From positions 2,464,001-2,528,000 of the forward strand of contig OX638340.1 in NCBI GenBank assembly GCA_951812955.1: 64,000 bases of DNA, read 5' to 3'. The position numbers and the translations under genes were made by a program. The notes beneath the pieces were generated by a model, which worked only from the letters and a program-made list of their open reading frames with translations, did no database searches and had not been told where the DNA came from. Origin of the DNA: an uncultured Gemmatimonadota bacterium. GTDB lineage: Bacteria > JAAXHH01. Of the stretch, positions 28,181 to 63,403 are shown in pieces (position 1 is the first letter of the stretch; each line of letters opens with the position of its first letter).

Positions 28181-29542
<1,362 letters not shown>

Positions 29543-29825: not shown

Positions 29826-29884
29826 CCGGTATTATCGAGGGCTGTTATTTTTAAGAAAAAAGCAGGAAATACCGGGAGTAAACG

Positions 29885-33973: not shown

Positions 33974-34000
33974 TGTTCCACGTGAAACAGGGGCCATGCA

Positions 34001-35923: not shown

Positions 35924-35924
35924 A

Positions 35925-36581: not shown

Positions 36582-36762
36582 AGGTTGATCGTTAGTCAGG
36601 GCAACATCTGGTGAAGTCAAAAACCAGCCGTAAGGTGATAATTACCACCGATTAAACAGCCTACCTCACTGCCGATTGGGCAGCGGTGACAAAAAACGCG
36701 TATACATAATAATATACGGGCTTTCGGCAGTGTTTCATACAACAATATAACTAAGTGTAATA

Positions 36763-48383: not shown

Positions 48384-50951
48384 TTATCGAAATATAGACA
48401 GACGGGAATTTCCTGTCAAGAGAAAGCCATCCAGCACTTGCCTGGGTGAAGGACCGAGGGGTTCCGGCGGAGCGAAGTTATAAAGATCCCAGGACCGGCC
48501 GTTGGTGCGAATGACGACCGCGCCGCCCAGGTCCGTTCTGTACACTTCCGCTCCCCGCCGCCTGTATCGCTCGATGATCTGGGGCGAGGGGTGTCGGAAG
48601 CGGTTGTACATGCCGGCGGAAACGGCCACGGCCTCCGGGTCGACGGCGTTCAGGAAGGCGAAGCTGCTCGACGTGTTGCTCCCGTGATGGGGCGATTTGA
48701 GCACCGTACTTTTCAGTGTGGACGGCCAACGGCCGGTCGCGGCCTCCGCCCTTTCCTCGATGTCACCGGTCAGCAGCATGCTGAATTTACCGTAGAACAG
48801 GCGCAGGACCACAGACACCTCGTTGGCATGGTTTTTCGCGGCACCGGTCAGGAATAGGGGGTCGGGATGGAGAAATAGGCCGCGCACGTCGCCCAGAGCC
48901 GCCAGGGTGTCTCCCTTTACAACTGTACGGTACGGAATGCCGTGCAGGTCGACGGTCTCCCGCCATGCCCGGTAGGATCCGGACTCCGACGGCACGCCGC
49001 TCGAGACGACCTCGCCCACTTCCACGGACTCCACCACGGCCGAAAGTCCACCGTAGTGGTCCAGGTGTGGGTGGGTTACGATCATCGTATCCACGCGCCG
49101 GTAGCCCCCGGCGCGCAGGAAAGGCACGATGACGCGGGCGCCTGCGTCCCAGGTGGGCGACCTGGGACCGCCGTCGACCAGCAGGGTGCGCCCGTTGGGA
49201 CAGGCAATGAAGATGGCGTCGCCCTGTCCGACGTCGAGGACGGTGATCTCAAGCGACCGTTCGGGCAGCAGGCTGTAGCAGAAGAGCAGGATGGAAAGGG
49301 CCACCAGTCCCAGCCGTGCCCGGCGCTCCCGGGGAGCGCCGGGGTTCCAGAGCAGCAGCAGGCCGGCGGCATAAAACGACGCGAAAAAAAGGCCGGAAGG
49401 CGCCGGTACTTTTACCAGTGCGGTTGGCACGCTGGACAAGAACTTCGAGAGATGGATCATGACAAACAGGACCAGGGCGTTTGCGGCGCTGAACAGACGG
49501 GCTATTTCGAAGAAAAGGGGACCGGTCAGGGCGGTGAGAACGCCGAAGGTCGTATTCAGAAAGACCAGCGGCCCGATAAAGAGATTTGCGACCGCCGACA
49601 TCCAGGAAACCTGGTAGAACGTGCCCGCCACCACGGGCAGCGTGCCCAGCTGCGCCGCGATCGAGACCAGCAACCCGTCCCGCAGCCATCGGGACCACCA
49701 CTTCTCCGACCGGGAAAGCCGTTCGGGCAGCAGCTCTTTCATCCTGGGATAACCCGAGATGATGGCGTAGGTCGCGAGAAAAGAAAGCTGGAAGCTCAGG
49801 TCGAAAAGCGCCGAGGGCCAGATCAGGAGTATGACGACGGCCGCCACGGCCAGGATGTTGACGGTGTCGGTCTGCCGATCCAGCTGACGGCCTGCCAGAA
49901 AGAGCGCCGCCATGATCGTGGCCCGGATGACCGAAGGCGTCAGGTTGGTGATGAAGGCGTACAGCACCAGGACGCCCAGCGTGCCGGCTACGACGATGTG
50001 CCGCGGGAGTCTGAGGACGAAAAGCAGCGTATGGATCACCAGGGTGATCAGGCCGACGTGCAGTCCGGAAACGGCCAGGATATGGGCCAGGCCGATCGTC
50101 TTGAAGGTGTCGAGCAGCTCTTCGGGCAGCTGGCGCCGCGCGCCGAGGAGAATGCCTTTCAGCAGGGCGGCGGAATCACCCCGCATGGTCCGGTCGATTG
50201 ATCGCTCGATGCTGTTTCGGAGCGGGTCTATGACGCCGGTCTGCCAGGTGAACGACCGGTTGCGCCGCGTCACGCGATAGCTTGCGGGATCGCGCACGCT
50301 CACGAGCGCGTGGATTCCCCGGCTCTCGTAGTAGGTGCGCGCGTCGAAGCCGCCGGGATTCCGGGCAGGTTGCGGACGGCGCAGGCGGCCCGAAACGAGG
50401 ACCCGGTCGCCGTACCGGCCGGGGTCGATACCGTTGGTCAGGCGAACCTGAAGGCGTCCCGCTACCGGCGAATTACGGCCAGCCGCGGATTCCGACCCGG
50501 CCCGATCAGCCGGAAACCGTCCGGCGGCCGAAAATCGCCCGGTGGCCGGCGACATGCCACGGGATACCTCTGGAGTCCGCCCGGCAACACCAAGGGAGAT
50601 GGAATCAGCGTCCAGGGTGACGACCGTGAATCGGGATCTGACCTCGGGCGTGCGGACGATCGTGCCCGTCAGGGTGTGGCGCTCCCGCTGGTCGCTGAGT
50701 CGCCGGATGTCGTTAGACGGCACGACCCGCATCTGCGCCGCGTACCAGAAAGCGCCCGCGAACACGAGGCACAGGGCCATGCAGATCCGTGGGGATATAG
50801 CGGCGGGACCACGGGTGCGGTAGAGCACGTAACCGGACGCGATAGCCGCCATAGAACACAGCGCGAAAAGCATCGGAGATACGGCGACGCGATGACCCAG
50901 CAGGATACCGAGTACGTAGCAGACCGCGATGAACAGGGCCGGGCGCCGCAT
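48384..50951 (-). CDS. comEC: DNA internalization competence protein ComEC/Rec2
   Basis: polytopic competence domain plus a C-terminal metallo-beta-lactamase segment (VTHPHLDHYGG). Confidence 0.85.
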   Translation of the reverse strand: MRRPALFIAVCYVLGILLGHRVAVSPMLFALCSMAAIASGYVLYRTRGPAAISPRICMALCLVFAGAFWYAAQMRVVPSNDIRRLSDQRERHTLTGTIVRTPEVRSRFTVVTLDADSISLGVAGRTPEVSRGMSPATGRFSAAGRFPADRAGSESAAGRNSPVAGRLQVRLTNGIDPGRYGDRVLVSGRLRRPQPARNPGGFDARTYYESRGIHALVSVRDPASYRVTRRNRSFTWQTGVIDPLRNSIERSIDRTMRGDSAALLKGILLGARRQLPEELLDTFKTIGLAHILAVSGLHVGLITLVIHTLLFVLRLPRHIVVAGTLGVLVLYAFITNLTPSVIRATIMAALFLAGRQLDRQTDTVNILAVAAVVILLIWPSALFDLSFQLSFLATYAIISGYPRMKELLPERLSRSEKWWSRWLRDGLLVSIAAQLGTLPVVAGTFYQVSWMSAVANLFIGPLVFLNTTFGVLTALTGPLFFEIARLFSAANALVLFVMIHLSKFLSSVPTALVKVPAPSGLFFASFYAAGLLLLWNPGAPRERRARLGLVALSILLFCYSLLPERSLEITVLDVGQGDAIFIACPNGRTLLVDGGPRSPTWDAGARVIVPFLRAGGYRRVDTMIVTHPHLDHYGGLSAVVESVEVGEVVSSGVPSESGSYRAWRETVDLHGIPYRTVVKGDTLAALGDVRGLFLHPDPLFLTGAAKNHANEVSVVLRLFYGKFSMLLTGDIEERAEAATGRWPSTLKSTVLKSPHHGSNTSSSFAFLNAVDPEAVAVSAGMYNRFRHPSPQIIERYRRRGAEVYRTDLGGAVVIRTNGRSWDLYNFAPPEPLGPSPRQVLDGFLLTGNSRLSIFR

Positions 50952-51076: not shown

Positions 51077-51769
51077 TTAGTCCCCCACGATCTTCCCGTC
51101 ACGCAGTCGCAGGATCCGGTCGCAGTGCCTGGCGACGTGCTCTTCATGGGTCACCAGCACGATCGTATGTCCGTCCCCGTTCAGGCGATCGAATATCGCC
51201 ATGACCTCCTCCCCGGTCCCGCTGTCCAGGTTTCCGGTGGGTTCGTCCGCCAGAATGATGGACGGTTCGTTGACCAGCGCACGGGCGATGGCCACACGCT
51301 GGCGTTGTCCGCCGGACATCTCGTTGGGCCGGTGGCGGGCCCGGTCGGCGACACCCACCGCGTCCAGGGCCTCCATGGATCGTCGACTCCTTTCCATTCT
51401 GTTCATCCCACGGTAGAGGAGCGGCAATTCCACATTGCGCAGGGCGTCCATTCTCGGAAGCAAGTTGAAAGCCTGGAACACGAACCCGATCTTGCGGTTC
51501 CGGATGAAAGCCTGTTCATCGTCCGAAAGGTCTCCAACCGGTCTGCCGTCAAGTTCGTAGCTGCCCGCCGTCGGCGTATCCAGGCAACCCAGGATGTTCA
51601 TCAGGGTGGATTTCCCGGAACCCGACTGCCCCATCACAGCTACGTACTCACCCCGGTCTATGGTGGCGGAGACGCCCCGGAGCGCGGTAATGCGGTCGCC
51701 TCCCATGGGGAAGGACTTATGCAGGTTTACGATGGAGATAAGGGACGAGGAACGGATGGATCGATGCAC
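51077..51769 (-). CDS. ABC transporter ATP-binding protein (MacB/LolD type), GTG start
   Basis: Walker [10 protein letters not shown], signature [15 protein letters not shown]; AGGAAG SD before the GTG. Confidence 0.85.
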
Positions 51770-51812
51770 GACGGCTTCCTGTGACCGGGTGTGTGATTCG
51801 GTTCTATACAGG

Positions 51813-51843
51813 TATAGTCGTGGTTAAATGGGAAATCTCGTAC
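51813..51843. repeat. copy 1 of a conserved ~30-nt element (TATAGTCGTGGTTAAATGGGAAATCTCGTAC), 44 nt upstream of the ABC ATPase start
   Basis: three near-identical copies in the window (see also 53613-53644 and 58476-58506). Confidence 0.6.
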
Positions 51844-51913
51844 GGGTTGCTGAATTGACAGGGTGTTCTCAATACCTGGAGTATGTTGTCAATACAAATG
51901 GTAACCAGTTGGG

Positions 51914-52597
51914 TTGACGGGACGTTTGCATCTCTATACCATAGTCGTTGCCCCTAATCATGAAATTGCCCCTGACCAAGGAACCAGTGACATGTCCGCT
52001 CCCGCCTCACGCATGAATGCCCGGCTATTTCTTTACGCAGCTGTCGCAGCCCTCGTCGCATTTAGCATCACCCTCTTCTGGCGCAATTATCAACAAAATC
52101 AAGACCTTCAGATTCTGCAGCATGGGCTATACAACGCCCAGGTAGAAATCCGCGTGCTGCAGGCGACCAATATGTTCGGGGCGCCCTTTATCACCCCCTT
52201 CCCCATGGTCGACCAGCACGGCCAACCTGCTGCATTACCGAATTTCGGTAATGGTCACCTGCTCCTCCTGTTTTTTAATGCGACGCATAGTCCATTTCGC
52301 CTCGACCTGATGTCTACATTTGGGTCGGTGATCGGAGACAATGTCCCGGTTATCGGCATTCTCCAGGCAGAATCGGCCGAGGAGATCTCGCCGATCGTGG
52401 ATCAATTCAGGTACAGCTTTCCGGTGTATCTGGCCGTCGATTCGCCCTTTGATCTGCCGTTTACACCCTACTGCGTGCTGATCGATGGATCCGGCAACGT
52501 GGTACACCTGTCACCCATCGCACCCGTCGGGTCCGCCGATACCCGATCGGTGGAGGCACTTATTTCGGAATTTGCGCAGTTGCTAGAGGGCGGGTAA
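51914..52597 (+). CDS. membrane-anchored TlpA-like thioredoxin-fold protein lacking the CxxC motif (probable start at the internal Met about 51992)
   Basis: TM helix then a redoxin-like fold with LLLLFFNATHSPF in the position of the WCxxC active site. Confidence 0.45.
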   Translation: MTGRLHLYTIVVAPNHEIAPDQGTSDMSAPASRMNARLFLYAAVAALVAFSITLFWRNYQQNQDLQILQHGLYNAQVEIRVLQATNMFGAPFITPFPMVDQHGQPAALPNFGNGHLLLLFFNATHSPFRLDLMSTFGSVIGDNVPVIGILQAESAEEISPIVDQFRYSFPVYLAVDSPFDLPFTPYCVLIDGSGNVVHLSPIAPVGSADTRSVEALISEFAQLLEGG

Positions 52598-52681
52598 GCC
52601 TTTTGCGCAACCTGGTGTGAAGTATCACCGGGCACCCGAAATGACGAATATGTACAATGTAAAACAAGGAGTAGCCTGATC

Positions 52682-53176
52682 ATGATCACTATTCACAAGG
52701 TGTTAATGGTATTATTGGTCCTGTCTGTAACCGCTTGTGGCGATGATGGTCAACCGAAGCAGGCAGGTCAATCGCAAATGGCTGGCCAACCGGACCAGGT
52801 TGGTCAAACGCCAACGGCAAGCCGACCGGACCCTGTGGCCGACCAGAAAGCTGGTATTTATCGGCCCACTACGGTGGACACGAAAGCTGAGATTGTTTAT
52901 TTTCCCCCTGTTCCCACCGACGTCGTCGATCTCGAATTCGATGGCCTCACAGTGATACAACTCGTTGTTGGTACTAATGGCAATGTAGACACGGCATTCG
53001 TCGAAAGATCGTCAGATCGCGTTTCTGTGGACTCTCTGATGCTGGACGTGGCTAAAAAAATGGTCTGGACGCCGGCAGTACATGACGGTGCCCGGGTAAA
53101 GATGCGAACCTCGATCCCGTTTATGTTCAAGATACCCACTCCAACCCCTGGCGAGGAGACCGTCACCGAGGAATAA
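52682..53176 (+). CDS. lipoprotein with a TonB C-terminal-like domain
   Basis: lipobox LSVTAC; Pro/Gln-rich linker; C-terminal about 90 aa TonB_C-like. Confidence 0.5.
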   Translation: MITIHKVLMVLLVLSVTACGDDGQPKQAGQSQMAGQPDQVGQTPTASRPDPVADQKAGIYRPTTVDTKAEIVYFPPVPTDVVDLEFDGLTVIQLVVGTNGNVDTAFVERSSDRVSVDSLMLDVAKKMVWTPAVHDGARVKMRTSIPFMFKIPTPTPGEETVTEE

Positions 53177-53534
53177 GGATCAACGTGAGATACCCCGCAG
53201 ATCGACCGTGAATGCCCTCGTCTTATCAAACCTGCTGTTTCGTTTCGAAGGAGTTACATATCCGGGCGAAGGCCCAAGCAGGCCTTCTATCCGGGAATTA
53301 CGCACGCCCAGGTGCGCAATCCGTTTTTCAATCTACGAAACCCGCTCATCAAGGTGGGCGATACGGTCGCCCAGGCGTATATCGAGTTGAGATATGCGGG
53401 TATCGAGGCTGCGCCAGACAAAGAGCAGGATCCCGATTGCGACGACATTGCTTATGACGTTTGTGGCGTCCACGATCATCTCTTGACTATGTTATTTAAA
53501 AAGTTCCAGCTTCGACATCCTTCGATCTACCTGG

Positions 53535-53612
53535 TTCTGCCAGAACCGGATTGGCCCGAAACGGCCACGTATTCGCCCCGGTTAATGGTGGCGTATACAC
53601 CCCGCAACGCGG
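53535..53612 (-). pseudogene. 5'-deleted fragment of an ABC ATPase gene paralogous to 51077-51769
   Basis: about 75% nt identity to 51640-51700 (codons 26-58 of the intact ATPase) with frame-breaking indels; joined directly to element copy 2, implying a ~115-nt deletion that removed the start codon. Confidence 0.5.
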
Positions 53613-53644
53613 TATAGTCGTGGTTTGGTGGGAAATCTCGTAAC
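53613..53644. repeat. copy 2 of the conserved ~30-nt element
   Basis: TATAGTCGTGGTTTGGTGGGAAATCTCGTAAC. Confidence 0.6.
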
Positions 53645-53793
53645 AAAAGGCTTTGACAAGGAAAGTGTAAGTGTCGTTCGAATGAAAGAGCATTGTACTG
53701 TGGTCAGGAGGTAATTACTTACCATAGACCCGAACGGCTGAAGCAAATGGTGCTAAGAAACAACCACAATCAGAAGTGTTACTTGCTACTGCC

Positions 53794-56193
53794 TTATTCT
53801 GCTTTGAGTGCATCAGCAGGATTCGCCGTCGCGGCTTTCAGCGCATGGTATCCGACCGTAAACCAAGTGATCGTAAGCGCGGCGAGCCCCGTGAGAATGA
53901 ACATCCACAAACCTATTTCGATACGGTACGGAAAACCTTCCAGCCACCCCTGCATGATGTAGTAACTGATAGGTACGCCAAGAACGAGAGCGATCAGGAT
54001 CAGCCAGGTAAAGTCCTTCGACAACAGCAGGATGACGTTCGAAACCGTCGCACCGACTGCCTTGCGAACGCCGATCTCCCTGGTCCGCTGTTCGGCCATG
54101 TAGGACGCCAGTCCCAACAAGCCCAGACAGGCGATCAGAATGGAAAGCGTCGCTCCGGCGATGAAGACGGACCCCAGCCGTTGTTCGGCGGCGTACTTTT
54201 GCTCGAGATCCTGGTCGAGGAAGTAGAATTCCATGGCGGGATGGTTCGGATAGGTTTCGCGCCACTGGTCCTGCAGTATTTCAAGTCCCTGGGTAAGGCT
54301 CTGGCTGCGCAGCCTGGCTACCATCGTATTGCCACCTTCCCAAAACAGAATCAAAAGCGGTTCAATGCGTTGGTGTAGCGTATGGTAGTGGAAATCCGCC
54401 ATGACGCCGACAACGTGCATTGGAGGATAGTCGGGTGTATGGGTATAGGTAAACGTCTTACCAATCGGGTCTTCCCATCCAAAAGACCTGGCAGCCGTTT
54501 CGTTGATAAGAACTGAGTAGTTGTCCGAAGCGACTGCGCGAGAAAACGTACGTCCCGATATTATCTCGATGCCCATTGTTTCTACGAAGTCGAAACCGGT
54601 CCAGATTGTGGGGATGAGCGGGGTATCCTCCACGATATATCCTTCCGGCTGAATGAAACTGGTAGCAGTTAGTCTGCCGGGCACGCTGGTTGTTGTGCTC
54701 AGGTTTACGATTTCAGGATACTGCATCACCTTGTTCCGGAAGGCCGGGAAACCCTGGACGGTCTCATAATCAGGCAGTCGTATAACTACCACGTGCTCTT
54801 TATCGAATCCCAGTTTCTTGTTTCCGATGTACTCCAGTTGCTCCAGTATAACCAACATTCCGACGATCATGATGATCGAGACGACGAACTGGAAGGTGAT
54901 CAGCGCTTTTCTGATAAGCGACGGTGAAACTCCCGTCTTCAACGCTCCGCTAAGTACGACAGCCGGCCTGAAAGAGGAAAGTACGAGGGCTGGGTATCCT
55001 CCGGCGATAATCCCGGTACAAAGTGCGATGGCCGCCAGGGCCGGCATCAGCCACGTGGATTGATAATCCATCTCCAGTGCCTTTCCCGAAAACCGGCTGA
55101 ACTCGGGCAGGAGCAGGTGTACCAGTGCCAGCGCCACGGCCAGGGCGATGAAGGCGAAGAAAACCGACTCGCCGATGAATTGCCCGATCAACTGGACCCG
55201 CTGGGCGCCCAGCACTTTCCGAATACCGACCTCCTGCGCCCGTCGTGCCGAACGGGCCGTGGATAGGTTCATGAAGTTCACGCAGGCGATCAGCAACATG
55301 AATATAGCCACCGAGGTGAAGATGTAGACATATCGAATGTCGCTGTTCGCTTTTATCTCAAGTTTGAAATTGGAGTGCAGATGGATATCGGTGAGCGGCT
55401 GCAGATAGGGTCTGAATTCCATGCCCAGCGTCTCCAGTCGTTCACCGAGGTGCCTTACCGGAAACTGGGGAAGTTTGTCTTCCAGGTCTTCCGGCGCGTA
55501 TCCCTCTTGAATCAGGAGATAGGTATACAGGGTTCTGTCCATGTTCTGGATCGTGGTCGGCTCGTTGTATATCCCGCTCGCCGAGAGAGTGGAAAACGAA
55601 GCAAGAAAGTCGGCGCGAAAATGCGAGTTCTTTGGCATATCGCGCATGATGCCCGTGACGGTAAACATGTAGATTTCGTCTGCGGAAATCACTTTCCCAA
55701 TCGGGTTCTCATTCCCGAAAATCATCTCCGCCATGGTTTCGGAAACGACAACGGTATGGGGTTTAGTCAGGGCCGTCTGGGGATTGCCCTGAACCAGAGG
55801 GAAGGTGAAAATGTCAAATACGGTTGAATCCGCAAAAATGAAGTATTTCTCCTCATAACTTTTTTCTTCGTAACCAATGAGCCAACTGGAATCCGGCGGC
55901 TTCCACCGGGTGAACTGCTCAATTTCTGGATACTCCTCCTTCAGGACCGGACCCCACGCTGATGGCGTCCTCGCCCATTCGTCCGTTCTGCCTTCCGCGG
56001 TACCAGATACCACTATTCGGTAAATCCGGTCTTTGCGCTCGTGGTGCTGATCGTAACTGAGCTCGTCCTCCACGTAGAGCAGGATCAGAATGCAGGAAGT
56101 CAGACCGATGGCCAGACCCAGGACATTAATCGTGGAATAGCCCCTGTGCCTGAACAGGTGCCTCAAAATGACGGTAACGTAGTTTCTGAACAT
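53794..56193 (-). CDS. ABC transporter permease with two FtsX domains (MacB-like, about 800 aa)
   Basis: MacB_PCD-like N-terminus and two four-TM FtsX modules. Confidence 0.85.
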   Translation of the reverse strand: MFRNYVTVILRHLFRHRGYSTINVLGLAIGLTSCILILLYVEDELSYDQHHERKDRIYRIVVSGTAEGRTDEWARTPSAWGPVLKEEYPEIEQFTRWKPPDSSWLIGYEEKSYEEKYFIFADSTVFDIFTFPLVQGNPQTALTKPHTVVVSETMAEMIFGNENPIGKVISADEIYMFTVTGIMRDMPKNSHFRADFLASFSTLSASGIYNEPTTIQNMDRTLYTYLLIQEGYAPEDLEDKLPQFPVRHLGERLETLGMEFRPYLQPLTDIHLHSNFKLEIKANSDIRYVYIFTSVAIFMLLIACVNFMNLSTARSARRAQEVGIRKVLGAQRVQLIGQFIGESVFFAFIALAVALALVHLLLPEFSRFSGKALEMDYQSTWLMPALAAIALCTGIIAGGYPALVLSSFRPAVVLSGALKTGVSPSLIRKALITFQFVVSIIMIVGMLVILEQLEYIGNKKLGFDKEHVVVIRLPDYETVQGFPAFRNKVMQYPEIVNLSTTTSVPGRLTATSFIQPEGYIVEDTPLIPTIWTGFDFVETMGIEIISGRTFSRAVASDNYSVLINETAARSFGWEDPIGKTFTYTHTPDYPPMHVVGVMADFHYHTLHQRIEPLLILFWEGGNTMVARLRSQSLTQGLEILQDQWRETYPNHPAMEFYFLDQDLEQKYAAEQRLGSVFIAGATLSILIACLGLLGLASYMAEQRTREIGVRKAVGATVSNVILLLSKDFTWLILIALVLGVPISYYIMQGWLEGFPYRIEIGLWMFILTGLAALTITWFTVGYHALKAATANPADALKAE

Positions 56194-56323
56194 GACGTAT
56201 TATCAGTGCCGATTTATGGACGATCGTAGAGATCGCTTAATAGCGTGCTCGACTATGTTCAGAGTGCTTTCCACGTGCAAAGTGCTTCGGTTTTCGTAAT
56301 CTGGATGCCCCGTCCATCGTCGG

Positions 56324-58198
56324 TCAACCATGTTCAGAGTCCTTCAGCACTTCAATTTTGGTCTGTCCGCTTTCCGTAGCGATTACGACATCGGTATTCC
56401 CATATTCATAGGTTGTCCCTAACGACATTCTAATGTTATTACTCGACCATGCATTGAGAGGCATCAATTCCTTTACCTCTTCATACTTCAGTACACCGCA
56501 ACGGGTATGCATAACCAAGCTGGTAGTTTTCGCTGCTTTTTCGCTTAACGCCAGTATCAGGTTGCCGGAAACGGTACGGAGGTTGCACCTGCCCCTTCGA
56601 ATACCGTCAGTGTAGCACAGCCGAGTGGTGCCATAGCGGTTGAAAATGGAAACATCTCCATTTAGATCACGTGCATCCAACACAGTACGACCGACTTCCA
56701 TATCCACACCGCCACTGATTGACTCGATCTTTCCTTCCCACTGATCTGGGCGTGCTAACATGTCGTGATCCAAGCTGCTTCCCCCACAGCCGTACATACG
56801 CTGATATACCAATCCGCTTACCTGTCGTATTTTGGAGAACTCGCTGTTGAAAAGATAGACATCTCCTGTGATTCCCTGTATATGGCAGGAATAGCAGGAA
56901 TACATTAAAAGTGAACCTTTCAAACCATCCACATTGACCTTATTGGATCTGAAAACCGACATTCTCATCCCGGCGGGAACCGAAATCGACATATGGCAAT
57001 ACGTGGCATGGCCGAATAGATTCGTTTCGTCGGTACAAACAGCTTCGAAAATATCCTCGACATTGCCTGACACGGTCGCTCTCGGCAATTCTATGGGTCG
57101 TACATTCGAAGTGTGAACAGTGATACGTAGTGATTTCCCCAGACTGTTTCCCACAGGTTTCGGCAGGGGCAGAAATCCGTCGACTTCATGCTTCAAATCT
57201 GGAAACATGTCGACCGTTCTTACACCGCCGACATTATCCTCCAGCACGCGGTCATTAATCAGATCACTTCTCCAGAATTTACTGATTGGCGACGTAGCGG
57301 CTACGTAATCAGATCCATAAGGGTTGCTGGTACCAAGAAACAACGCCCCTTCGTGGGGGCCTGTTTCCAGGTAGTTGGCGACCTGGTCATGAGATATATG
57401 AAAGCCGCTGAGGTTGCTTCGCGATTCTTCTTCCGTCAGACCCAACGCGATCTTCGAACCTTCAACAATAACCTGTTTTCCCTGTGCCTGCTTAATATCG
57501 ACCTCCGTATTCACGCCGCAGTAGAGGACAATGTTTTTCGTGTCTCCCATGTCTATGGTTTCACTGAAATCTTCTCTGGCGATCTTGCAGACCACATCCT
57601 GTACTTCATCGGTCACATCGATCTGGCTCATGGCGATGGTCTCCTTTTCCTGAGGCGACAGTGCTGCTCTCAGCCGGATCCGGGACTGGAATAGCCGTCC
57701 TTTCACCGTCGATTCGGGAATGTCCAGAAACGAGGCGATTTCCTTCAGTGAAAAACCGGTGTAGTAGTACAAATTGACGATCTGGCGATAGTGTTCGGGC
57801 AGTCTCTCGACTTCATCCCAAAGCTCGAGACACTCGAGGTATTCCCGATGGATCTGGTCCGCCAGGGGGAATTCGTCGCGCATATGTTCAGCATCCGGAT
57901 CGACTCGGACCAGACGATCAACCTTCTTCCGACGGCGCGATTCCTTGCATCGGTTGACGACGATTCTGTGAAACCAACTACCGAAAACGGCCGGGTCCTT
58001 CAATTGCGACAACTTGCAGTAAGCGGCAACGAATGCATCCTGTACCACGTCCTCCGCGTCTGTTCGATCCCGAAGGAATCCCAGCGCTACGGCGAAAGCG
58101 GCGTTCTGGTACCGCCGGACCAGCGGCTCGAAGGCGTCGGCGTTTCCCTGCAGGCACTGCAGGATGCTGTAAGTGTCGTCGTGTGTTGTTTTCGCCAT
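56324..58198 (-). CDS. ECF sigma factor (about 185 aa, regions 2 and 4) fused to a ~430-aa C-terminal extension of unknown function
   Basis: sigma-2 DAEDVVQDAFVAAY...FGSWFHRIVVNRC and sigma-4 LYYYTGFSLKEIASFLDIPESTVKGRL; no TM; conserved Cys cluster YCHMSI...CYSCH. Confidence 0.75.
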   Translation of the reverse strand: MAKTTHDDTYSILQCLQGNADAFEPLVRRYQNAAFAVALGFLRDRTDAEDVVQDAFVAAYCKLSQLKDPAVFGSWFHRIVVNRCKESRRRKKVDRLVRVDPDAEHMRDEFPLADQIHREYLECLELWDEVERLPEHYRQIVNLYYYTGFSLKEIASFLDIPESTVKGRLFQSRIRLRAALSPQEKETIAMSQIDVTDEVQDVVCKIAREDFSETIDMGDTKNIVLYCGVNTEVDIKQAQGKQVIVEGSKIALGLTEEESRSNLSGFHISHDQVANYLETGPHEGALFLGTSNPYGSDYVAATSPISKFWRSDLINDRVLEDNVGGVRTVDMFPDLKHEVDGFLPLPKPVGNSLGKSLRITVHTSNVRPIELPRATVSGNVEDIFEAVCTDETNLFGHATYCHMSISVPAGMRMSVFRSNKVNVDGLKGSLLMYSCYSCHIQGITGDVYLFNSEFSKIRQVSGLVYQRMYGCGGSSLDHDMLARPDQWEGKIESISGGVDMEVGRTVLDARDLNGDVSIFNRYGTTRLCYTDGIRRGRCNLRTVSGNLILALSEKAAKTTSLVMHTRCGVLKYEEVKELMPLNAWSSNNIRMSLGTTYEYGNTDVVIATESGQTKIEVLKDSEHG

Positions 58199-58475
58199 AG
58201 GGTAGTTGTCGTCTTAAGGGTTTCGTACAAAATCAGATAATAAGGAAGCGTTACATAGAATAAGATGACCTTGCGGCCTCAACGGTTAAAAACAAAATCG
58301 TGTATATGGTGGCGGTCAGGTCTCGAAGAGTTGAAATACGGCCTATCCCCTCATGGAATGACCTTTCGAGACCGACAACGCAGATTTTGGGGTCGATTCG
58401 TATCGGTAGGTTCAGATTCAAAAGGATGCACGACTCATGACCGGTATCGGAAGCGTATTCAACTTCCTATCACGC

Positions 58476-58506
58476 ATAGTCGTGGTTTGGTGGGCAATTT
58501 CGAACG
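58476..58506. repeat. copy 3 of the conserved ~30-nt element, between the two sigma-fusion paralogs
   Basis: ATAGTCGTGGTTTGGTGGGCAATTTCGAAC. Confidence 0.6.
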
Positions 58507-58537
58507 TACAGTTACCTGCGGGGTTCGAGACTTAAAC

Positions 58538-60412
58538 TCACTTCATCGCGTCGGGGCCATCTGACAACTCGACTTCGGCGGTGCCACTTTCTGTAAGGAG
58601 CAGATAGTCCGCGTGCGTTGTATCATACGTAGTTCCGGCCGTGATGCGATGCCCGTCGTTATATGTCGAATAGAGCCGCATCACGTCCTTTGCCTGACCC
58701 AATTTCAAGACGCCACAACGCGTATACATCACAACGCTGACCGTCTTTGCGAGTCTTTCATCCAGAACCAGCTTTGCCTCGCCAGAGACGGTCCTGAGGT
58801 TACAACGAGTTCCGGATTCCCGGGATGACTGGTACAAGCGGGTTGTACCGAATCGGTTGTAAATGGATACGTCACCCTCCAGGTCCTGCGCGTCCAGCAC
58901 GAAACGGCCGACATCGATATCCACACTGCCCTTTATATTGGATAGTTTTCCTTCCCACACATCCGTGTTGCGTATCATTCCGTCAAGGTAGCTCGCGGCG
59001 CCGTATTCATACATTCGCTGACAGAACACACCGCCTACTTCATGTATATCCGAAAACATGCTGTTGAACAGGTACACATCCTTCGAGATACCGGTTATCT
59101 GGCAGGAATGGCAGGCATACACCATCAAGGAACCGTTCAATCCCTCCGCGTTGATCCGCTTCGCCTTGAACACCGAAATGTTCTTTCCGGCCGGGACCTC
59201 AATAGAAACATGACAGTACGAGGCCGGTCCGAAAACCTTGGAATCATCGGACCAGTAAACCTGGAAAACATCCTTGATGCTTTCCGTCATGGCGGAGTTC
59301 GGTACATGAATCGGCCGTACTTCCATCGTGTGAACCGAAATCCGTATTGATTTGCTCAAGCTCGCACGCGCCGGTTTTGGCAGCGGAGGAAACGTATCGA
59401 TATCGTCTTTAAGATCCGGGTACAGATCGACCAATCTCACCCCGTTACAAACTTCGTCCAGCATCCAGTCGTTCATCAGATCCCGTCTCCAGTGGTCGCT
59501 GATCCGTTTGGTCATAGCTGCGTTTTCGCCACTGGTTGAATCTACACCGACAAAAAGCTCACCTTCATGGGGACCGGCTTTATAGAAATCATCGACCGTA
59601 TCGTGGGAAACGGCAAATCCGCCAAGGTTGAGGGTTGCCTCTTCTTCGCTAAAACCAAGCGCGATCTTCGAACCTCTCACAACAACCTGTTCTCCTTGCG
59701 CCTGCTTAATCTCAACCTCCGTACTCACGCCGCAATAGAGGACGATGTTCTCTACGTCGCCCATGTCGATCGTTTCTACAAAATCCTCCTTGGCGATCCG
59801 GCAGACAACATCCTGGACCTCTTCGGTTACGTCGATCTGGCTCATGGCAATGGTCTCCTTTTCCTGTGGGGACAACGCCTCTCTCAGCCGGATTCTGGAC
59901 TGATAGAGGCGTCCCCGCGCCGTGGATTGCGGAATGTCCAGAAAGGCAGCGATTTCTTTCAGTGAGAAGCCGGTGTAGTAGTACAACGTGACGACCTGGC
60001 GATAAAGTTCCGGGAGCTGCTCGACTTCATCCCAGATTTCGAGACGCTCGATGTATTTTTGATGGATACGATCCGACATAGCGAATTCATCGCGAGATTC
60101 TCCAGAAACCGTATCGACGCGGACTTGACGACCGATTCTGCTTCGTCGGACCAGCTCCTTGCAACGGTTGACAACGATTCGGTGAAACCAACTGCCGAAA
60201 ACGGCCGGGTCCTTCAACTGCGACAGCTTGCAGTAGGCGGCCACAAAAGCATCCTGTACCACGTCCTCCGCGTCTGTTCGATCCCGAAGGTAACCCAGAG
60301 CCACGGCGAAAGCGGCATTCTGGTACCGCCGGACCAGCGGCTCGAAGGCGTTGGCGTTTCCCTGCAGGCACTGGCGGATGTTATAGGTATCGTCGTGTAT
60401 GAGAGTGGTCAT
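58538..60412 (-). CDS. paralogous ECF sigma factor fused to a ~430-aa C-terminal extension
   Basis: same architecture and length (624 aa) as 56324-58198; N-terminal 185 aa nearly identical. Confidence 0.75.
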   Translation of the reverse strand: MTTLIHDDTYNIRQCLQGNANAFEPLVRRYQNAAFAVALGYLRDRTDAEDVVQDAFVAAYCKLSQLKDPAVFGSWFHRIVVNRCKELVRRSRIGRQVRVDTVSGESRDEFAMSDRIHQKYIERLEIWDEVEQLPELYRQVVTLYYYTGFSLKEIAAFLDIPQSTARGRLYQSRIRLREALSPQEKETIAMSQIDVTEEVQDVVCRIAKEDFVETIDMGDVENIVLYCGVSTEVEIKQAQGEQVVVRGSKIALGFSEEEATLNLGGFAVSHDTVDDFYKAGPHEGELFVGVDSTSGENAAMTKRISDHWRRDLMNDWMLDEVCNGVRLVDLYPDLKDDIDTFPPLPKPARASLSKSIRISVHTMEVRPIHVPNSAMTESIKDVFQVYWSDDSKVFGPASYCHVSIEVPAGKNISVFKAKRINAEGLNGSLMVYACHSCQITGISKDVYLFNSMFSDIHEVGGVFCQRMYEYGAASYLDGMIRNTDVWEGKLSNIKGSVDIDVGRFVLDAQDLEGDVSIYNRFGTTRLYQSSRESGTRCNLRTVSGEAKLVLDERLAKTVSVVMYTRCGVLKLGQAKDVMRLYSTYNDGHRITAGTTYDTTHADYLLLTESGTAEVELSDGPDAMK

Positions 60413-60442
60413 GTTGAATCAAATCGAAGTCTGAATGCAGTT

Positions 60443-61441
60443 TTAGTCGAGATATGCATCAAAAGCCGCCAGCAGTGAAGGATAGTAATCTTCGAAGGTC
60501 ATATCTTGAATATGATGCTGCTCGAAATCCTCAAGTGCTCGAATAAGGGCGGGGAGGTAGTGAAACCCCTTTTCTATATCTCGCACGAGTAAACGATCAC
60601 CGTGTTTTGGACCCGTTTCTCTATGAAACAATCGAGACGTAATGGCGCGTATCAAATGTTCGTTCAAGCATATCTCCCAAGCCCCATAGCCACCCGCCTT
60701 AGCCATTTTATCTAGTATCGGGTCCAACAATGAGGCGTACTTCCCGATGTCAGGGCGATGTCGTTCAGTAACGGGATTAACGAACGAATGGCCGAACTCA
60801 TGCCAGATGAGTTCCAGCAATTCGTCTCTTGTTCCATACACCGGAATACCTTCAACCGATCCGACAGGCCCTATCACGCTGAATATGGACAGCCTGTTAT
60901 CAGGATGTCGGACTCGAGGTCCGATCCCACCGTGTTGAAACAAGGGGCTCAAAACCAGGTTGTAGTCACGATGTCGCATTCCATAGTATTGTTCCAAGAC
61001 GTCGATCAAATTCTCACTGCCCAGTGTTTGAAAAACTGTGTCAATTAAGGATTTGTAGTACGTGGTTTGGCTTTCAAAAAAAGTACCAAAGTCCGATTGG
61101 ATCGCAAAATCACTCAGTAGTTTGTAGAATGTTCGAAACCGGGTTTCGCCTTGAAATGCTCGAATGTAGTATTCGTAGTTTTCGTACGGGAATATAGGTG
61201 TGAGTCCCGGCAGTTCCGACAGCGACAACACCGGACCCAGGTAGGCGTCCGAGTAAGTACCATTCTCTGTGATTTTCCTAAACAGCTTGACTGCCTCATG
61301 CGTTTTGAATGGCGAAAAGTAATCCCGCATGTACTGGGAATACGCCACATCGTACCTGGTTAGTCCTTCATAGTCGCACAGCAACTTTATAGTGATGACA
61401 AGTTCAATTCTGGGATCTACGTCGATGCTCAGCCTGGTCAT
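60443..61441 (-). CDS. HExxH-motif (WHEFGH) putative zinc metallopeptidase-like protein, cytoplasmic
   Basis: 332 aa; no signal peptide; ELLELIWHEFGHSF. Confidence 0.5.
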   Translation of the reverse strand: MTRLSIDVDPRIELVITIKLLCDYEGLTRYDVAYSQYMRDYFSPFKTHEAVKLFRKITENGTYSDAYLGPVLSLSELPGLTPIFPYENYEYYIRAFQGETRFRTFYKLLSDFAIQSDFGTFFESQTTYYKSLIDTVFQTLGSENLIDVLEQYYGMRHRDYNLVLSPLFQHGGIGPRVRHPDNRLSIFSVIGPVGSVEGIPVYGTRDELLELIWHEFGHSFVNPVTERHRPDIGKYASLLDPILDKMAKAGGYGAWEICLNEHLIRAITSRLFHRETGPKHGDRLLVRDIEKGFHYLPALIRALEDFEQHHIQDMTFEDYYPSLLAAFDAYLD

Positions 61442-61503
61442 CTCTATTTCTCCGTGCTCGGCGAAAGGAGTCGGTATATCTCGACCGAGGATACCGAATG
61501 CAC

Positions 61504-62394
61504 TTACCGTCCGTACCCGCTTTCTTTAAAAAAACGTAGCGCATCGGGGCCGTCCTTTATGGCCAGAATGTCCTCAATAGCCGCCTTTTTATCAGCCCTC
61601 TTCTCGTAGTATGCTTCACATATCTTGTACCCTACGTAGTATCCAAGGTCAGCAGGCCTTGCTCCCGTGCCGCTGCCGCCGTTGTAGAGCCATTTGCTCA
61701 TATCGGTTTGTAACATTTCATTCGAGAACGATTCCCACAATTCAGTTTCGTGCGCCTCTCCATACACGTGCAAATGAGGGTTGATGTGTTTTCCAGTTGC
61801 TAACTCTCCAAGGAAATCGGCAGCACCTTCGAGTATGGAGTGACCCAGTAGTGTGTTTTCTCCAAAATCATAGGCCTGTTGAGTGTGTATAAGTTCGTGG
61901 ATAACGATAAATGGAATCTCTTCTACCGGTTTGAGGACTTCAAGATACCATTCGTTCAGTTCGTCCGAAGGAAGATCGTCCGTCCGGCACCAAATTTCGG
62001 TCCCGATCAGCAGCCCATTGCTCGACGTTGTTCCGCCGGAGGTCATTTTGCCAATCATAAAGTACACATCTGGAAAATCTGCCTTACTGTATAGTTGCTT
62101 CCAGTTGTGCATATACCCACGGATCTGATCGGTCAAATCCAACACACGGTTTGAACTCTCTCTTATAGAAGCGTAATACCTCGGTCGGGCTTCGATTACC
62201 TTGACCAACTCATCCGCACTCTCGATTCTGGATTCGATGAAATCTTTTAAACCGATACTGCCCTTTGCGAAGTACTCCGATTCGAAGATGTTTATCATTT
62301 CTTCTGTAGTCTTGCCTTCTGACAGGTCGTACGCCAGCCAGAAACGATCGATATCGGAAGTAACCAACCGGACGTCGTCGGGATCGTTACTCAT
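61504..62394 (-). CDS. HExxH-motif (IHELIH) putative zinc-dependent protease-like protein (DUF2268-like)
   Basis: 296 aa; no signal peptide; FIVIHELIHTQQ...GENTLL; GGGAGG SD. Confidence 0.5.
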   Translation of the reverse strand: MSNDPDDVRLVTSDIDRFWLAYDLSEGKTTEEMINIFESEYFAKGSIGLKDFIESRIESADELVKVIEARPRYYASIRESSNRVLDLTDQIRGYMHNWKQLYSKADFPDVYFMIGKMTSGGTTSSNGLLIGTEIWCRTDDLPSDELNEWYLEVLKPVEEIPFIVIHELIHTQQAYDFGENTLLGHSILEGAADFLGELATGKHINPHLHVYGEAHETELWESFSNEMLQTDMSKWLYNGGSGTGARPADLGYYVGYKICEAYYEKRADKKAAIEDILAIKDGPDALRFFKESGYGR

Positions 62395-62796
62395 TGAGGA
62401 AAACCTCCCTGTTTGCTGAGCATAGGCTATTGCGAAACTCGTACCAGCAGAAATACCAACAAAGGACCATGCACGTCTCGAATCTCGTTGAGTTCATAAC
62501 AGACATGATCATGGGTCTAGTTTTCCTTTGCCAGTCTGCACCCTGTGAAGAAGTCTGAATCGGTCGACCGTATGTTGACCGTACATGGTTTACAGGTGTT
62601 GATTGCCCGATGAGGGACATAACCCTCTGATAGTTTAGACGCTTCAGTACTCCAATTGATCAAAATCGAATTTGTTGGTTCTGTGAATTTGCAAATGAGA
62701 AGTCCACACACGATCATAAGAGGGACATTTACACATCGTACGTTTTGTCCTCAATTTCGTGGTCTGGTTGTTCACTGTATACACCCCACCGCATCA

Positions 62797-62824
62797 TTGA
62801 CACCGGCACCGATTCCCTTATATT
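62797..62824 (+). promoter_or_regulatory. sigma70-like promoter (TTGACA, 16 nt, TATATT) for the redoxin gene
   Basis: read directly in the AT-rich intergenic region. Confidence 0.4.
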
Positions 62825-62908: not shown

Positions 62909-63403
62909 ATGGCGTTCCTGGAAGCCGGGGTCGCGGCCCCGGAAGTCACCCTGGAAGACGCGGACGGACAATCGACGTCGCTGGCCGACCTGACTAACGG
63001 CGGCTGGTTGCTGGCCGTCTTTTACAAGGTGGGCTGCGGGACCTGCAAGTTCAGCGCCCCCTATTTCGAGAAGATCCACCAGGCTTACGGCGGCAAGCAG
63101 GGATTCCGGGTGCTCGGTGTCTCGCAGGACACGCCGGAGGACACCCGCGCTTTCATGGACGAACACGGCGCTTCCTTCGAGAACGTGTACGACGCCACCC
63201 ACTGGGCCTCCGCGGATTTCGGCCTGACGAACGTGCCGACGTGGTTTCTCATGGACGAAAACGGCGGCATACTGGACAGCAACACGGGCTTCTGCCGGAC
63301 CGACCTCAACGAGTTGTCGGTGACCGTCGCGGCCCATCTCGGCGAAGAGGCCGTTGTCATTTCGCCGGGGGACGACGGCGCGCCCGAACTGAAGCCTGGA
63401 TGA
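62909..63403 (+). CDS. thioredoxin-fold thiol-disulfide oxidoreductase (TlpA/redoxin family) with a CxxC motif
   Basis: WLLAVFYKVGCGTCKF. Confidence 0.65.
   Translation: MAFLEAGVAAPEVTLEDADGQSTSLADLTNGGWLLAVFYKVGCGTCKFSAPYFEKIHQAYGGKQGFRVLGVSQDTPEDTRAFMDEHGASFENVYDATHWASADFGLTNVPTWFLMDENGGILDSNTGFCRTDLNELSVTVAAHLGEEAVVISPGDDGAPELKPG

What the first reader, a model, noticed from the sequence alone, without database searches (positions are those of the whole stretch)
56324..60412. Mosaic composition and probable gene conversion within the sigma-fusion paralogs
The N-terminal sigma-domain coding regions of the two paralogs are about 92-95% identical at the nucleotide level and have near-host GC (about 57-60%). 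The C-terminal extension regions are only about 55% identical at the protein level and are markedly lower in GC (about 47%). The sharp change at the domain boundary suggests a chimeric origin. One option is a host-like sigma fused to a foreign domain. The other is concerted evolution of the sigma part only, while the sensor domains diverge.
Basis: seen in the sequence. Interest (0 to 1): 0.55.

Follow-up and report, generated by a model that had tools for sequence, protein, structure and literature searches.

The report
Sigma-factor genes with swappable sensor halves
Two neighbouring genes for a sigma factor fused to a beta-helix domain are real mosaics: recombination keeps mixing the front 40% among copies and strains, while the back 60% exists as a few old, distinct versions that are exchanged whole.

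Summary
The two tandem 624-aa genes (A 56324-58198, B 58538-60412, minus strand) are 81% identical in nucleotides over codons 1-251 and 59% after that. Only codons 14-85 reach 93%. The switch lies about 65 codons past sigma region 4, after a small conserved beta domain.

Comparison with 26 related copies from other genomes shows recombination, not unequal constraint. Five C-terminal types are each monophyletic at 100% bootstrap in the C-part tree and at 0% in the N-part tree. Close relatives (L027, L026) match the window at 93-97% up to codon about 280 of gene A. Beyond that they carry a different C-terminal type at about 65%.

Short reciprocal A<->B conversion tracts also occur in sigma region 2. 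The GC step is modest (GC3 0.66 vs 0.51 in A, 0.66 vs 0.61 in B). Both halves are below host GC3 (about 0.8).

The fusion is ancient and fixed. Every detectable relative of the extension is a sigma fusion, so a recent "host sigma plus foreign domain" chimera is not supported. The C-terminal end is a Toastrack-like beta-helix (DUF4097/DUF2807).

Interest is moderate: a new variant of known kinds.

The parts
58538..60412 (-). Gene B: ECF sigma factor fused to a 440-aa extension (624 aa), C-terminal 'type 7'
   Evidence: ORF. Pfam Sigma70_r2 (26-92) and r4_2 (124-176). C-type clustering.
56324..58198 (-). Gene A: tandem paralogue (624 aa), C-terminal 'type 2'
   Evidence: ORF. Pfam. AF2 model, mean pLDDT 79. 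C-type clustering.
57443..58198 (-). Gene A N-module (codons 1-252): sigma2, variable linker, sigma4 and a conserved small beta domain (about 190-252)
   Evidence: Change point at codon 251. Secondary structure. 93-97% identical to L026a and L027a, which carry other C types.
56324..57442 (-). Gene A C-module (codons 253-624): alpha/beta region plus Toastrack-like right-handed beta-helix (about residues 392-616, window 56351-57025)
59657..60412 (-). Gene B N-module (codons 1-252)
58538..59656 (-). Gene B C-module (codons 253-624)
   Evidence: Same-type orthologues 84-98% identical, other types 44-56%.
57944..58159 (-). Gene A codons 14-85 (sigma region 2): block 93% identical in nucleotides to gene B 60158-60373. 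Holds the longest identical runs (42 and 34 nt).
   Evidence: Rank 1 of 132 A-clade x B-clade pairs.
60158..60373 (-). Gene B codons 14-85, partner of the block above
57971..57988 (-). Gene A codons 71-76: run of 5 diagnostic sites carrying B-type states (B-to-A conversion tract, shared with L026a)
   Evidence: No permutation of 2000 reached the observed run length.
60362..60373 (-). Gene B codons 14-17: run of 4 diagnostic sites carrying A-type states (A-to-B conversion tract), with further scattered A-like sites nearby in codons about 8-30
   Evidence: permutation p=0.005.
57335..57520 (-). Junction zone in gene A (codons 227-288), where N/C change points of 60 discordant family pairs cluster. 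The breakpoints of window gene A against L026a and L027a fall at window 57365 and 57351.
59549..59734 (-). Junction zone in gene B (codons 227-288)
58249..58297 (-). Conserved promoter-like element 51-99 nt upstream of gene A (TTTTGTTTTTAACC-N16-CATCTTA...TATGTAACG). Conserved upstream of fusion genes in 13 other loci and unique in the window.
   Evidence: Function is inferred, not tested.
51842..62782 (.). Low-GC hypervariable island between AhpC (62909-63403, +) and ABC ATPase (51077-51769, -) with ComEC (48384-50951, -). Contains DUF2268 (61504-62394), DUF4932 (60443-61441), B, A, a MacB-type permease (53794-56193), a TonB_C-like ORF (52682-53176) and orf227 (51914-52597).
   Evidence: Composition. 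Gene content differs among close relatives in the same slot.

Best explanation
Genes A and B are tandem members of a small family of cytoplasmic ECF sigma factors fused to a C-terminal extension. The extension has a conserved ~60-residue beta domain, an alpha/beta region and a Toastrack-like beta-helix. The two halves of these genes have separate evolutionary histories because of homologous recombination.

The N-module is codons 1 to about 252-283: sigma2, linker, sigma4 and the small beta domain. It is similar enough between copies (identical runs up to 42 nt) to recombine, and it does so in two ways. (a) Short gene-conversion tracts pass between the tandem paralogues within sigma2 and the linker. 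(b) Crossovers occur at the end of the conserved part, in a junction zone at residues about 227-288. These crossovers exchange the whole C-module, often together with downstream DNA, between alleles or copies of related genomes.

The C-modules are too diverged (59% nt, identical runs under 17 nt) to recombine with one another. They persist as at least eight discrete, individually conserved types.

Shown: the step in identity and in synonymous divergence, the tree incongruence, sharp breakpoints between near-identical genomes, and the conversion tracts.

Inferred: that the N-module is the transcription unit and the C-module is a partner-binding or signal-input surface. Its type may be matched to variable neighbouring membrane proteins (MacB-type permease, TonB_C-like protein). 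The modest GC3 excess of the N-module may reflect its recombination history or codon selection rather than a different origin. Unequal crossing-over between tandem N-modules may also create and remove copies.
For: Step in the window pair: change point at codon 251, nucleotide identity 0.81 vs 0.59, third-position identity 0.68 vs 0.41, 0 of 500 permutations. pS is 0.27 (codons 14-85), 0.46 (codons 1-252) and 0.71 (codons 253-620).

Family-wide discordance: C-parts are 84% identical within types and 48.5% between types. N-parts are 83% within and 79% between. For 37 of 72 proteins the nearest N-part neighbour has another C type, for example P0015/P0029 at 98% vs 58% and P0028/P0059 at 96% vs 43%.

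NJ bootstrap: five C types are 100% monophyletic in the C-part tree and 0% in the N-part tree. winA groups with L026a, L021a and L027a, which carry three different C types.

N-part distances track the flanking ComEC gene (Mantel r=0.51, p=0.0005). C-part distances do not (r=0.10, p=0.14).

Sharp breakpoints between close relatives in the same chromosomal slot: L022 vs L025 are 97-100% identical up to nt 837, then 55-70%. The window vs L027 is 95-97% from AhpC through all of B and A codons 1 to about 260, then 60-70%. winA vs L026a is 96.5% up to nt 834, then 63.9%.

Change points of 60 discordant pairs cluster at residues 227-288.

Same-type orthologues: C-part pS of 0.28-0.43 is close to core genes (0.26-0.36), but N-part pS is 0.42-0.65.

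Conversion tracts: winA codons 71-76 are B-like (0 of 2000 permutations). winB codons 14-17 are A-like (p=0.005). L021b codons 96-136 are A-like (p=0.0015). L001a codons 21-65 are B-like (p=0.003).

winA-winB sigma2 identity ranks 1 of 132. All identical runs of 16 nt or more lie in the N-part.

Fold. PF13349 Toastrack passes its cutoff in relative P0159.
Against: All comparison sequences are metagenome-assembled, so strain mixing in the consensus could create some short 'tracts'. I could not check reads.

Identity between the window and its closest relative L021 is also patchy in flanking genes. The short tracts are therefore not unique to this gene.

The diagnostic-site tests rest on 3-4 reference sequences per paralogue.

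Trees are NJ on JC distances, and the C-part is saturated between types.

A and B N-parts are not sisters in the N tree, so within-genome homogenisation is limited to short stretches.

The functional reading (partner binding, matching to neighbouring genes) rests only on domain identity and on a weak linkage: type 2 is followed by MacB in 3 of 3 loci, two of them close relatives.
Confidence: 0.82

Rival explanations
1. Ongoing concerted evolution between the two tandem copies alone is the main cause of the step. Gene conversion homogenises the sigma part of A and B within each genome while their C-parts drift apart.
For: Reciprocal A<->B tracts in sigma2 and the linker. The window pair has the highest sigma2 identity of 132 pairs. 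Identical runs long enough for RecA-type recombination occur only in the N-part.
Against: In the N-part tree A-slot and B-slot copies form separate clades across genomes, and within-genome pairs are not sisters. Whole-N-part identity of tandem pairs (75-81%) is close to the between-type mean in the wider family (79% at protein level). In L001 the tandem pair is saturated even in sigma2 (pS 0.76-0.78). Single-copy genomes show the same N/C discordance. This rival does not explain the allelic C-module replacements.
Confidence: 0.1
2. There is no recombination. The sigma part is simply under stronger purifying selection than the extension, so it looks more similar.
For: dN is lower in the N-part (0.05-0.13) than in the C-part (0.32). 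Sigma regions 2 and 4 are conserved in all ECF sigma factors.
Against: Synonymous divergence also steps, from 0.27-0.46 to 0.71. Among same-type orthologues the N-part is more diverged than the C-part and than core genes. Tree incongruence is 100% vs 0%. Breakpoints between genomes that are otherwise 95-97% identical are very sharp.
Confidence: 0.03
3. Recent chimeric origin: a resident, host-like sigma gene was fused to a horizontally acquired low-GC domain.
For: The C-part of gene A has lower GC3 (0.51) than its N-part (0.66). The genes sit in a low-GC variable island. Planctomycete ECF duplicates are reported to gain unrelated extensions by insertion (PMC7671368).
Against: The extension-only searches found only sigma fusions or fragments. 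In full-length hits the match starts at residue about 180-195 of 600-630-aa proteins, down to 24% identity. Eight of eight distant full-length relatives have sigma2 plus sigma4. The N-part GC3 (0.66) is well below host core genes (0.77-0.86). The GC3 step is weak in B (0.66 vs 0.61). The switch lies inside the extension, not at the fusion point. The C-parts of A and B are homologous, at 48% identity with one single-residue gap in each sequence.
Confidence: 0.03
4. Assembly or binning artefact: metagenome assemblers joined N-parts and C-parts of different copies or strains across the conserved repeat.
For: All sequences are MAG or metagenome contigs. The N-part is a repeat within genomes that carry two copies.
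Against: The same gene (P0029) with the same neighbours was recovered in three independent assemblies, L022, L023 and L024. Discordant combinations occur in single-copy loci on long contigs and on records titled complete chromosomes. Identical runs between A and B are at most 42 nt, which from general knowledge is shorter than the largest k-mers usual in metagenome assembly. C-types are consistent across many samples.
Confidence: 0.02

Closest known systems
ECF sigma factors with fused C-terminal regulatory extensions (ECF41, ECF42, ECF56/SigG1, ECF238/CorE and others; Casas-Pastor et al. 2021, PMC7826278)
   Same: A sigma2-sigma4 core is followed by a long extension. No recognisable anti-sigma gene lies next door (neighbours scanned). 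The extension is probably the regulatory input. The part of the extension closest to the core is as conserved as the core, which fits the idea of a type-specific contact with the core quoted in that paper.
   Different: The extension here is about 440 aa: a small beta domain, an alpha/beta region and a Toastrack-like beta-helix. It is not SnoaL-like, TPR, Cys-rich, DUF1835 or transmembrane. No such group is mentioned in the main text of the re-classification. Modular exchange of extension types within one family has not been described in the papers I could search.
Planctomycete ECF duplicates that acquire distinct C-terminal extensions by fortuitous insertion (Pinto et al. 2020, PMC7671368)
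   Same: Duplicated ECF cores carry different C-terminal parts.
   Different: In that case the extensions are unrelated sequences created by insertion into other genes. Here all C-modules are homologous and have the same length. They are exchanged by homologous recombination at a conserved junction in one fixed chromosomal slot.
Toastrack-domain signalling proteins (DUF4097/DUF2807/DUF2154; LiaF, LiaG, YvlB, VraT; Ravi et al. 2024, PMC11237479)
   Same: [quoted passage not shown] My structure hits include 4QRK and 4OPW, the exemplars named in that paper. The domain is predicted to be intracellular and is linked there to transcription regulators and to ABC ATPase/permease operons. Here ABC permeases and an ATPase flank the genes.
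   Different: In that paper Toastrack usually follows transmembrane domains (PspC, LiaI-LiaF-TM), or is only linked by operon to a sigma factor. Here it is fused directly to an ECF sigma in a protein with no Pfam-recognised membrane domain. The window proteins themselves do not reach any Pfam Toastrack model.
Mosaic genes with a conserved N-part and exchangeable C-terminal modules (CdiA-CT and Rhs polymorphic toxins, HsdS target-recognition domains, pilin cassettes). Comparison from general knowledge.
   Same: A sharp demarcation separates a conserved, recombining part from discrete, deeply diverged variants. The variants are exchanged with crossovers in the conserved part, and adjacent DNA may travel with the variable part.
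   Different: There is no toxin or immunity pair, no silent or orphan cassettes (the 435-aa 'stand-alone' calls are start-codon artefacts), no inverted repeats or recombinase, and no evidence of programmed switching. The exchange is seen between genomes, not within a clone.

Membership tests
ECF (group 4) sigma-70 family | Sigma region 2 and region 4 present, with no region 1.1 or 3 | tested here: met
ECF (group 4) sigma-70 family | Assignment to a numbered ECF group (ECF Hub / ECFfinder HMMs) | not testable with these tools
   No ECF-group HMM library is available. No NCBIfam equivalog model reaches its cutoff.
ECF sigma factors regulated by a fused C-terminal extension | Extension longer than 50 aa after sigma4, and no anti-sigma gene adjacent | tested here: met
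   The extension is 440 aa. The neighbours are DUF4932, DUF2268, a MacB-type permease, a TonB_C-like ORF and an ORF with no match. None shows an anti-sigma domain.
ECF sigma factors regulated by a fused C-terminal extension | The extension modulates sigma activity by contacting the core | not testable with these tools
   Indirect support only: residues 190-252 of the extension are as conserved as the core.
Toastrack (DUF4097/DUF2807/DUF2154) beta-helix | [quoted passage not shown] | tested here: met
Toastrack (DUF4097/DUF2807/DUF2154) beta-helix | Sequence match to a Pfam Toastrack model | tested here: inconclusive
   The window proteins give no hit even at E<=5. The distant family member P0159 passes PF13349 (24.2 bits against a cutoff of 22.9).
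Interparalogue gene conversion (concerted evolution) | Tracts in which one copy carries the paralogue's states against the consensus of its own orthologues, clustered beyond chance | tested here: met
   winA codons 71-76, winB 14-17, L021b 96-136 and L001a 21-65. Permutation p ranges from 0 of 2000 to 0.005. Site patterns are shown.
Interparalogue gene conversion (concerted evolution) | Paralogues of one genome group together, rather than with their orthologues, in the converted region | tested here: not met
   In the N-part NJ tree, A-slot and B-slot copies form separate clades. Only the sigma2 block shows excess within-genome identity (rank 1 of 132).
Intragenic allelic recombination / module exchange | Significant phylogenetic incongruence on the two sides of a breakpoint, and sharp breakpoints between otherwise near-identical genomes | tested here: met
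   Bootstrap 100% vs 0%. Breakpoints. Clustering of change points. Mantel tests.
Cassette systems with silent donors or programmed switching (pilE/pilS, shufflons, hsdS inversion) | Promoterless partial copies, inverted repeats or a site-specific recombinase at the locus | tested here: not met
   There are no inverted repeats in 56324-60412. The 435-aa 'stand-alone' C-parts are mis-called starts of intact genes. No recombinase lies in the island. The only mobile element seen is an IS that splits one copy in L026.

The most novel reading that the evidence does not exclude
The locus encodes a polymorphic sigma factor. One transcription module is combined, by recombination at a fixed junction, with any of at least eight ancient Toastrack-containing input modules. 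These modules are kept as a long-lived polymorphism spanning several species of host-associated Latescibacterota/Gemmatimonadota-labelled bacteria. Each would be matched to co-transferred membrane partners such as a MacB-type permease or a TonB_C-like protein. That would be a mode of diversifying the signal input of a sigma factor comparable to the swapping of specificity domains in restriction enzymes or polymorphic toxins. It would also imply balancing or diversifying selection on what the sigma factor senses.
Probability: 0.3. Interest if true: 0.65.

Novelty: new variant of a known kind. Interest (0 to 1): 0.5.

Why it matters
[quoted passage not shown] This family offers a natural experiment. 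The same promoter-recognition module is found on at least eight alternative, individually conserved C-terminal modules, with mapped crossover points. That indicates where the functional boundary of the protein lies: after the small beta domain, not after sigma4. It also suggests chimeras that should be viable. In addition, it provides a direct sigma-Toastrack fusion, linking a domain proposed to assemble sub-membrane stress-sensing complexes to transcription in a single polypeptide. For genome annotation, it warns that trees built on whole-length alignments of such genes are meaningless.

Tried and rejected
(1) An ungapped comparison of A and B misleads after residue about 297, because each gene has one single-residue indel there. 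I replaced it with a codon alignment.

(2) In the first four-sequence site-pattern analysis against L021, I read codons 86-150 of B as coming from a 'third source'. Adding L027, L026 and L001 showed instead that L021b was converted by an A-like sequence there. That idea is withdrawn.

(3) Low-identity patches between the window and L021 are not specific to the sigma part. Flanking genes are patchy too, so this comparison alone is only suggestive.

(4) Stand-alone C-modules as silent cassettes: rejected. L028 holds an intact full-length ORF, and the gene caller started at the invariant Met189. In L026 the split is caused by an IS.

(5) Recent horizontal spread of C-modules between species: not supported. 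Same-type C-parts are about as diverged at synonymous sites as the core genes.

(6) Defence-system membership: no PADLOC hits for any island protein.

(7) The afdb50 fold library was not available.

(8) The exact-sequence look-up of window gene B found nothing.

(9) Literature searches for gene conversion in sigma-factor paralogues, and for Latescibacteria sponge sigma factors, returned nothing.

Full report
WHAT IS THERE. The interval holds two tandem ORFs on the minus strand, A (56324-58198) and B (58538-60412), each 624 aa. Both have Pfam Sigma70_r2 (residues 26-92) and Sigma70_r4_2 (about 125-176). Residues 186-624 match no Pfam family, even at E<=5. Only the generic NCBIfam ECF superfamily model passes its cutoff. 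An AlphaFold2 model built on an 81-sequence alignment (mean pLDDT 79, about 90 in the C-terminal part) shows four pieces:
- the helical sigma core, with a disordered sigma2-sigma4 linker (92-124);
- a flexible hinge (184-189);
- a small four-stranded beta domain (about 204-252) and an alpha/beta region;
- a long run of short strands (392-616).

CHECKING THE OBSERVATION. A codon alignment needs only one single-residue gap in each sequence.
- Codons 1-185: nucleotide identity 80.7% (78% aa).
- Codons 14-85: 93%.
- Sigma2-sigma4 linker (codons 86-130): 69% nt and 51% aa.
- Codons 186-260: 79% nt and 80% aa.
- Codons 261-624: 58.5% nt and 48.5% aa.

The best single change point is codon 251, with identity 0.81 to the left and 0.59 to the right. 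At third positions it is 0.68 vs 0.41, and no permutation of 500 reached the observed statistic. So a sharp step exists. It lies about 65 codons beyond the sigma domain, at the end of the small beta domain. The '92-95%' figure holds only for sigma region 2.

GC of the sigma part is 56%, and the C-part is 48% in A and 52% in B. GC3 is 0.66 vs 0.51 in A and 0.66 vs 0.61 in B. Host core genes in the window have GC3 of 0.77-0.86. The whole stretch from about 51,800 to 62,800 is a low-GC island. Across 28 copies from many genomes the mean GC3 is 0.67 (N) vs 0.585 (C), with N above C in 25 of 28. Neither value tracks flank GC. The composition step is therefore real but modest, and the sigma part is not host-like.

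IS IT MORE THAN UNEQUAL CONSTRAINT? Synonymous differences also step: pS is 0.27 for codons 14-85, 0.46 for 1-252 and 0.71 (saturated) for 253-620. Homologues settle the question. A search found about 87 full-length relatives, mostly in MAGs labelled Gemmatimonadetes. The genome-contig scan added loci labelled Latescibacterota or Gemmatimonadetes, and some isolate names suggest sponge or coral hosts. C-parts fall into at least eight discrete types, 84% identical within types and 48.5% between. N-parts show almost no type structure, at 83% within and 79% between. For 37 of 72 proteins the nearest N-part neighbour carries a different C type. Examples are P0015/P0029 (98% vs 58%) and P0028/P0059 (96% vs 43%).

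On a codon alignment of 24 copies, five C types are each monophyletic at 100% bootstrap in the C-part tree and at 0% in the N-part tree. winA groups there with L026a, L021a and L027a, which carry three different C types. N-part distances follow the flanking ComEC gene (Mantel r=0.51, p=0.0005). C-part distances do not (r=0.10, p=0.14). Among same-type orthologues the C-part is about as diverged at synonymous sites as the core genes (0.28-0.43 vs 0.26-0.36). The N-part is more diverged (0.42-0.65). That is the reverse of what stronger constraint alone would give. It is what recombination with other N-parts would give.

DIRECT BREAKPOINTS, INCLUDING IN THE WINDOW'S OWN GENE. Every ingroup locus that extends far enough lies in one chromosomal slot, with AhpC upstream and ABC ATPase plus ComEC downstream. 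L022 and L025 are about 97% identical in the far-downstream genes. They share the first 837 nt of the fusion gene at 97-100% identity, then drop to 55-70%.

The window and L027 are collinear at 95-97% from AhpC through DUF2268, DUF4932, all of gene B, the intergenic region and gene A codons 1 to about 260. Identity then falls to 60-70% for the rest of A. Downstream of A the loci differ: the window has a MacB-type permease there, which L027 lacks, and the TonB_C-like genes that both carry are only 71-77% identical. The ML change point of winA vs L027a is after nt 848 (92.7% then 66.4%). That of winA vs L026a is after nt 834 (96.5% then 63.9%). For 60 pairs with at least 90% N-part identity but different C types, change points cluster at residues 227-288. 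This region holds the last conserved motifs (NIVLYCGV, GSKIALG, GPHEG) before the variable part.

GENE CONVERSION BETWEEN A AND B. I used sites where the A and B orthologue consensuses differ.
- winA carries B-type states at five consecutive diagnostic sites in codons 71-76 (0 of 2000 permutations), shared with L026a.
- winB carries A-type states in codons 14-17 (p=0.005), with more nearby.
- L021b carries A-type states through codons 96-136 (p=0.0015). This is visible in the protein as an A-like linker in P0043.
- L001a carries B-type states in codons 21-65 (p=0.003).

The window pair has the highest sigma2 identity (92.6%) of 132 A-clade x B-clade pairs, whose median is 82.9%. All identical runs of 16 nt or more between A and B (42, 34, 23, 21 nt and shorter) lie in the N-part. 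From general knowledge of homology requirements for RecA-type recombination, this would confine exchange to the N-part.

Homogenisation is local, however. A-slot and B-slot N-parts form separate clades. In L001 the tandem pair is saturated even in sigma2.

THE CHIMERA HYPOTHESIS. Searching with the extension alone found only the same family. An exhaustive HMMER scan of 1.84 billion representatives found just 86 clusters. In essentially all full-length hits the match begins at residue about 180-195 of a 600-630-aa protein. Eight of eight distant full-length relatives tested have sigma2 plus sigma4. The fusion is therefore ancient and fixed. The apparently 'stand-alone' 435-439-aa proteins do not show a separate architecture: the one examined (L028) is a mis-called start at the invariant Met189, and in L026 an IS splits the gene.

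HOW IT PROBABLY WORKS (inference). The N-module, made of the sigma core plus the small beta domain, is the unit that must stay together. The C-module, ending in a Toastrack beta-helix, is the variable input. Toastrack domains are proposed to be intracellular docking surfaces of sub-membrane signalling complexes, and are linked to transcription factors and ABC transporter operons (PMC11237479). Here the genes are flanked by MacB-type permeases, an ABC ATPase and a TonB_C-like protein. The distant outgroup loci are flanked by MacB-like permeases. Type 2 C-modules are followed by a MacB-type permease in 3 of 3 loci, a weak hint that module and partner travel together. A conserved promoter-like element lies upstream of gene A (58249-58297). 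It is unique in the window and conserved in 13 other loci, which suggests autoregulation.

COMPARISON WITH WHAT IS KNOWN. [quoted passage not shown] None of those named in the main text of the re-classification is a beta-helix or Toastrack (PMC7826278). Pinto et al. describe unrelated extensions created by insertion of duplicated cores in Planctomycetes (PMC7671368), which is a different process. I found no report of recombinational exchange of extension types, or of gene conversion among sigma paralogues. The evolutionary pattern resembles other conserved-N/variable-C mosaic genes. However, it lacks silent cassettes, inverted repeats and recombinases.

CAVEATS. All comparators are metagenome assemblies, so reads could not be checked. 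Trees are NJ. The short tracts rest on few references. Window-vs-L021 identity is patchy in flanking genes as well. All function is inferred.

VERDICT. The dominant process is module exchange at a junction inside the extension, with short A<->B conversion tracts on top. This is a new variant of known kinds and of moderate interest.

Noticed in passing
window 58249-58297 (minus strand): A conserved promoter-like element lies 51-99 nt upstream of gene A (TTTTGTTTTTAACC-N16-CATCTTA...TATGTAACG). It is also present upstream of fusion genes in 13 other loci, but absent before B-type copies that directly follow DUF4932, DUF2268 or MacB. It occurs only once in the 64 kb window. It may be an autoregulated ECF-type promoter.
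   Followed up: partly
window 60414-62782 vs L021 3215-5980: DUF2268 (61504-62394) and DUF4932 (60443-61441) upstream of gene B are replaced by a second MacB-type permease in the otherwise about 96% identical relative L021. L027, L028 and L001 have the window's arrangement.
   Followed up: partly
window 51842-53611: This stretch is extra relative to L021. It holds orf227 (51914-52597, no Pfam match) and a TonB_C-like ORF (52682-53176, PF03544 E=1e-6). Diverged TonB_C-like genes occupy this position in most other loci.
   Followed up: partly
residue 189 of both proteins (window 57632-57634 in A; 59846-59848 in B): Met189 (AMSQIDVT) is invariant at the hinge between sigma4 and the extension. In the one locus checked (L028), the gene caller started there and produced a 435-aa 'stand-alone' product. 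Three similar 435-439-aa products (P0076, P0079, P0113) probably have the same origin. Whether an internal start is used in vivo is unknown.
   Followed up: partly
L026 6467-9588: The first fusion gene of this close relative is split by an IS (DDE_Tnp_1 transposase, 7095-8012, opposite strand).
   Followed up: no
L012 7445-8731; L007 9992-11871; L014 9992-11861: These copies are degraded or frameshifted: an internal deletion in L012x, and frameshifts in L007 and L014. They are either pseudogenes or sequencing or assembly errors.
   Followed up: no
window 54883-55182 (MacB-type permease): There is a local drop to 83-89% identity against L021 inside an otherwise 95-99% identical gene. L021 carries a second, diverged permease paralogue, so conversion between permease paralogues is possible.
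   Followed up: no
window about 26000-30000 and about 34000-37000: Two further patches of lower GC (52-57%) lie in a 60-67% GC background. They were not examined.
   Followed up: no
P0120 residues 209-259 (equivalent to the small beta domain, A residues about 204-252): A weak, sub-threshold Pfam TOBE_2 match (E=6e-4, 20.3 bits against a cutoff of 21) hints that the conserved small beta domain may be TOBE/OB-like.
   Followed up: no
L022 1-9481: In this genome the AhpC side of the slot is replaced by helicase, NERD and MZB-domain genes typical of defence islands. No PADLOC hits were found for the window's own island proteins.
   Followed up: partly
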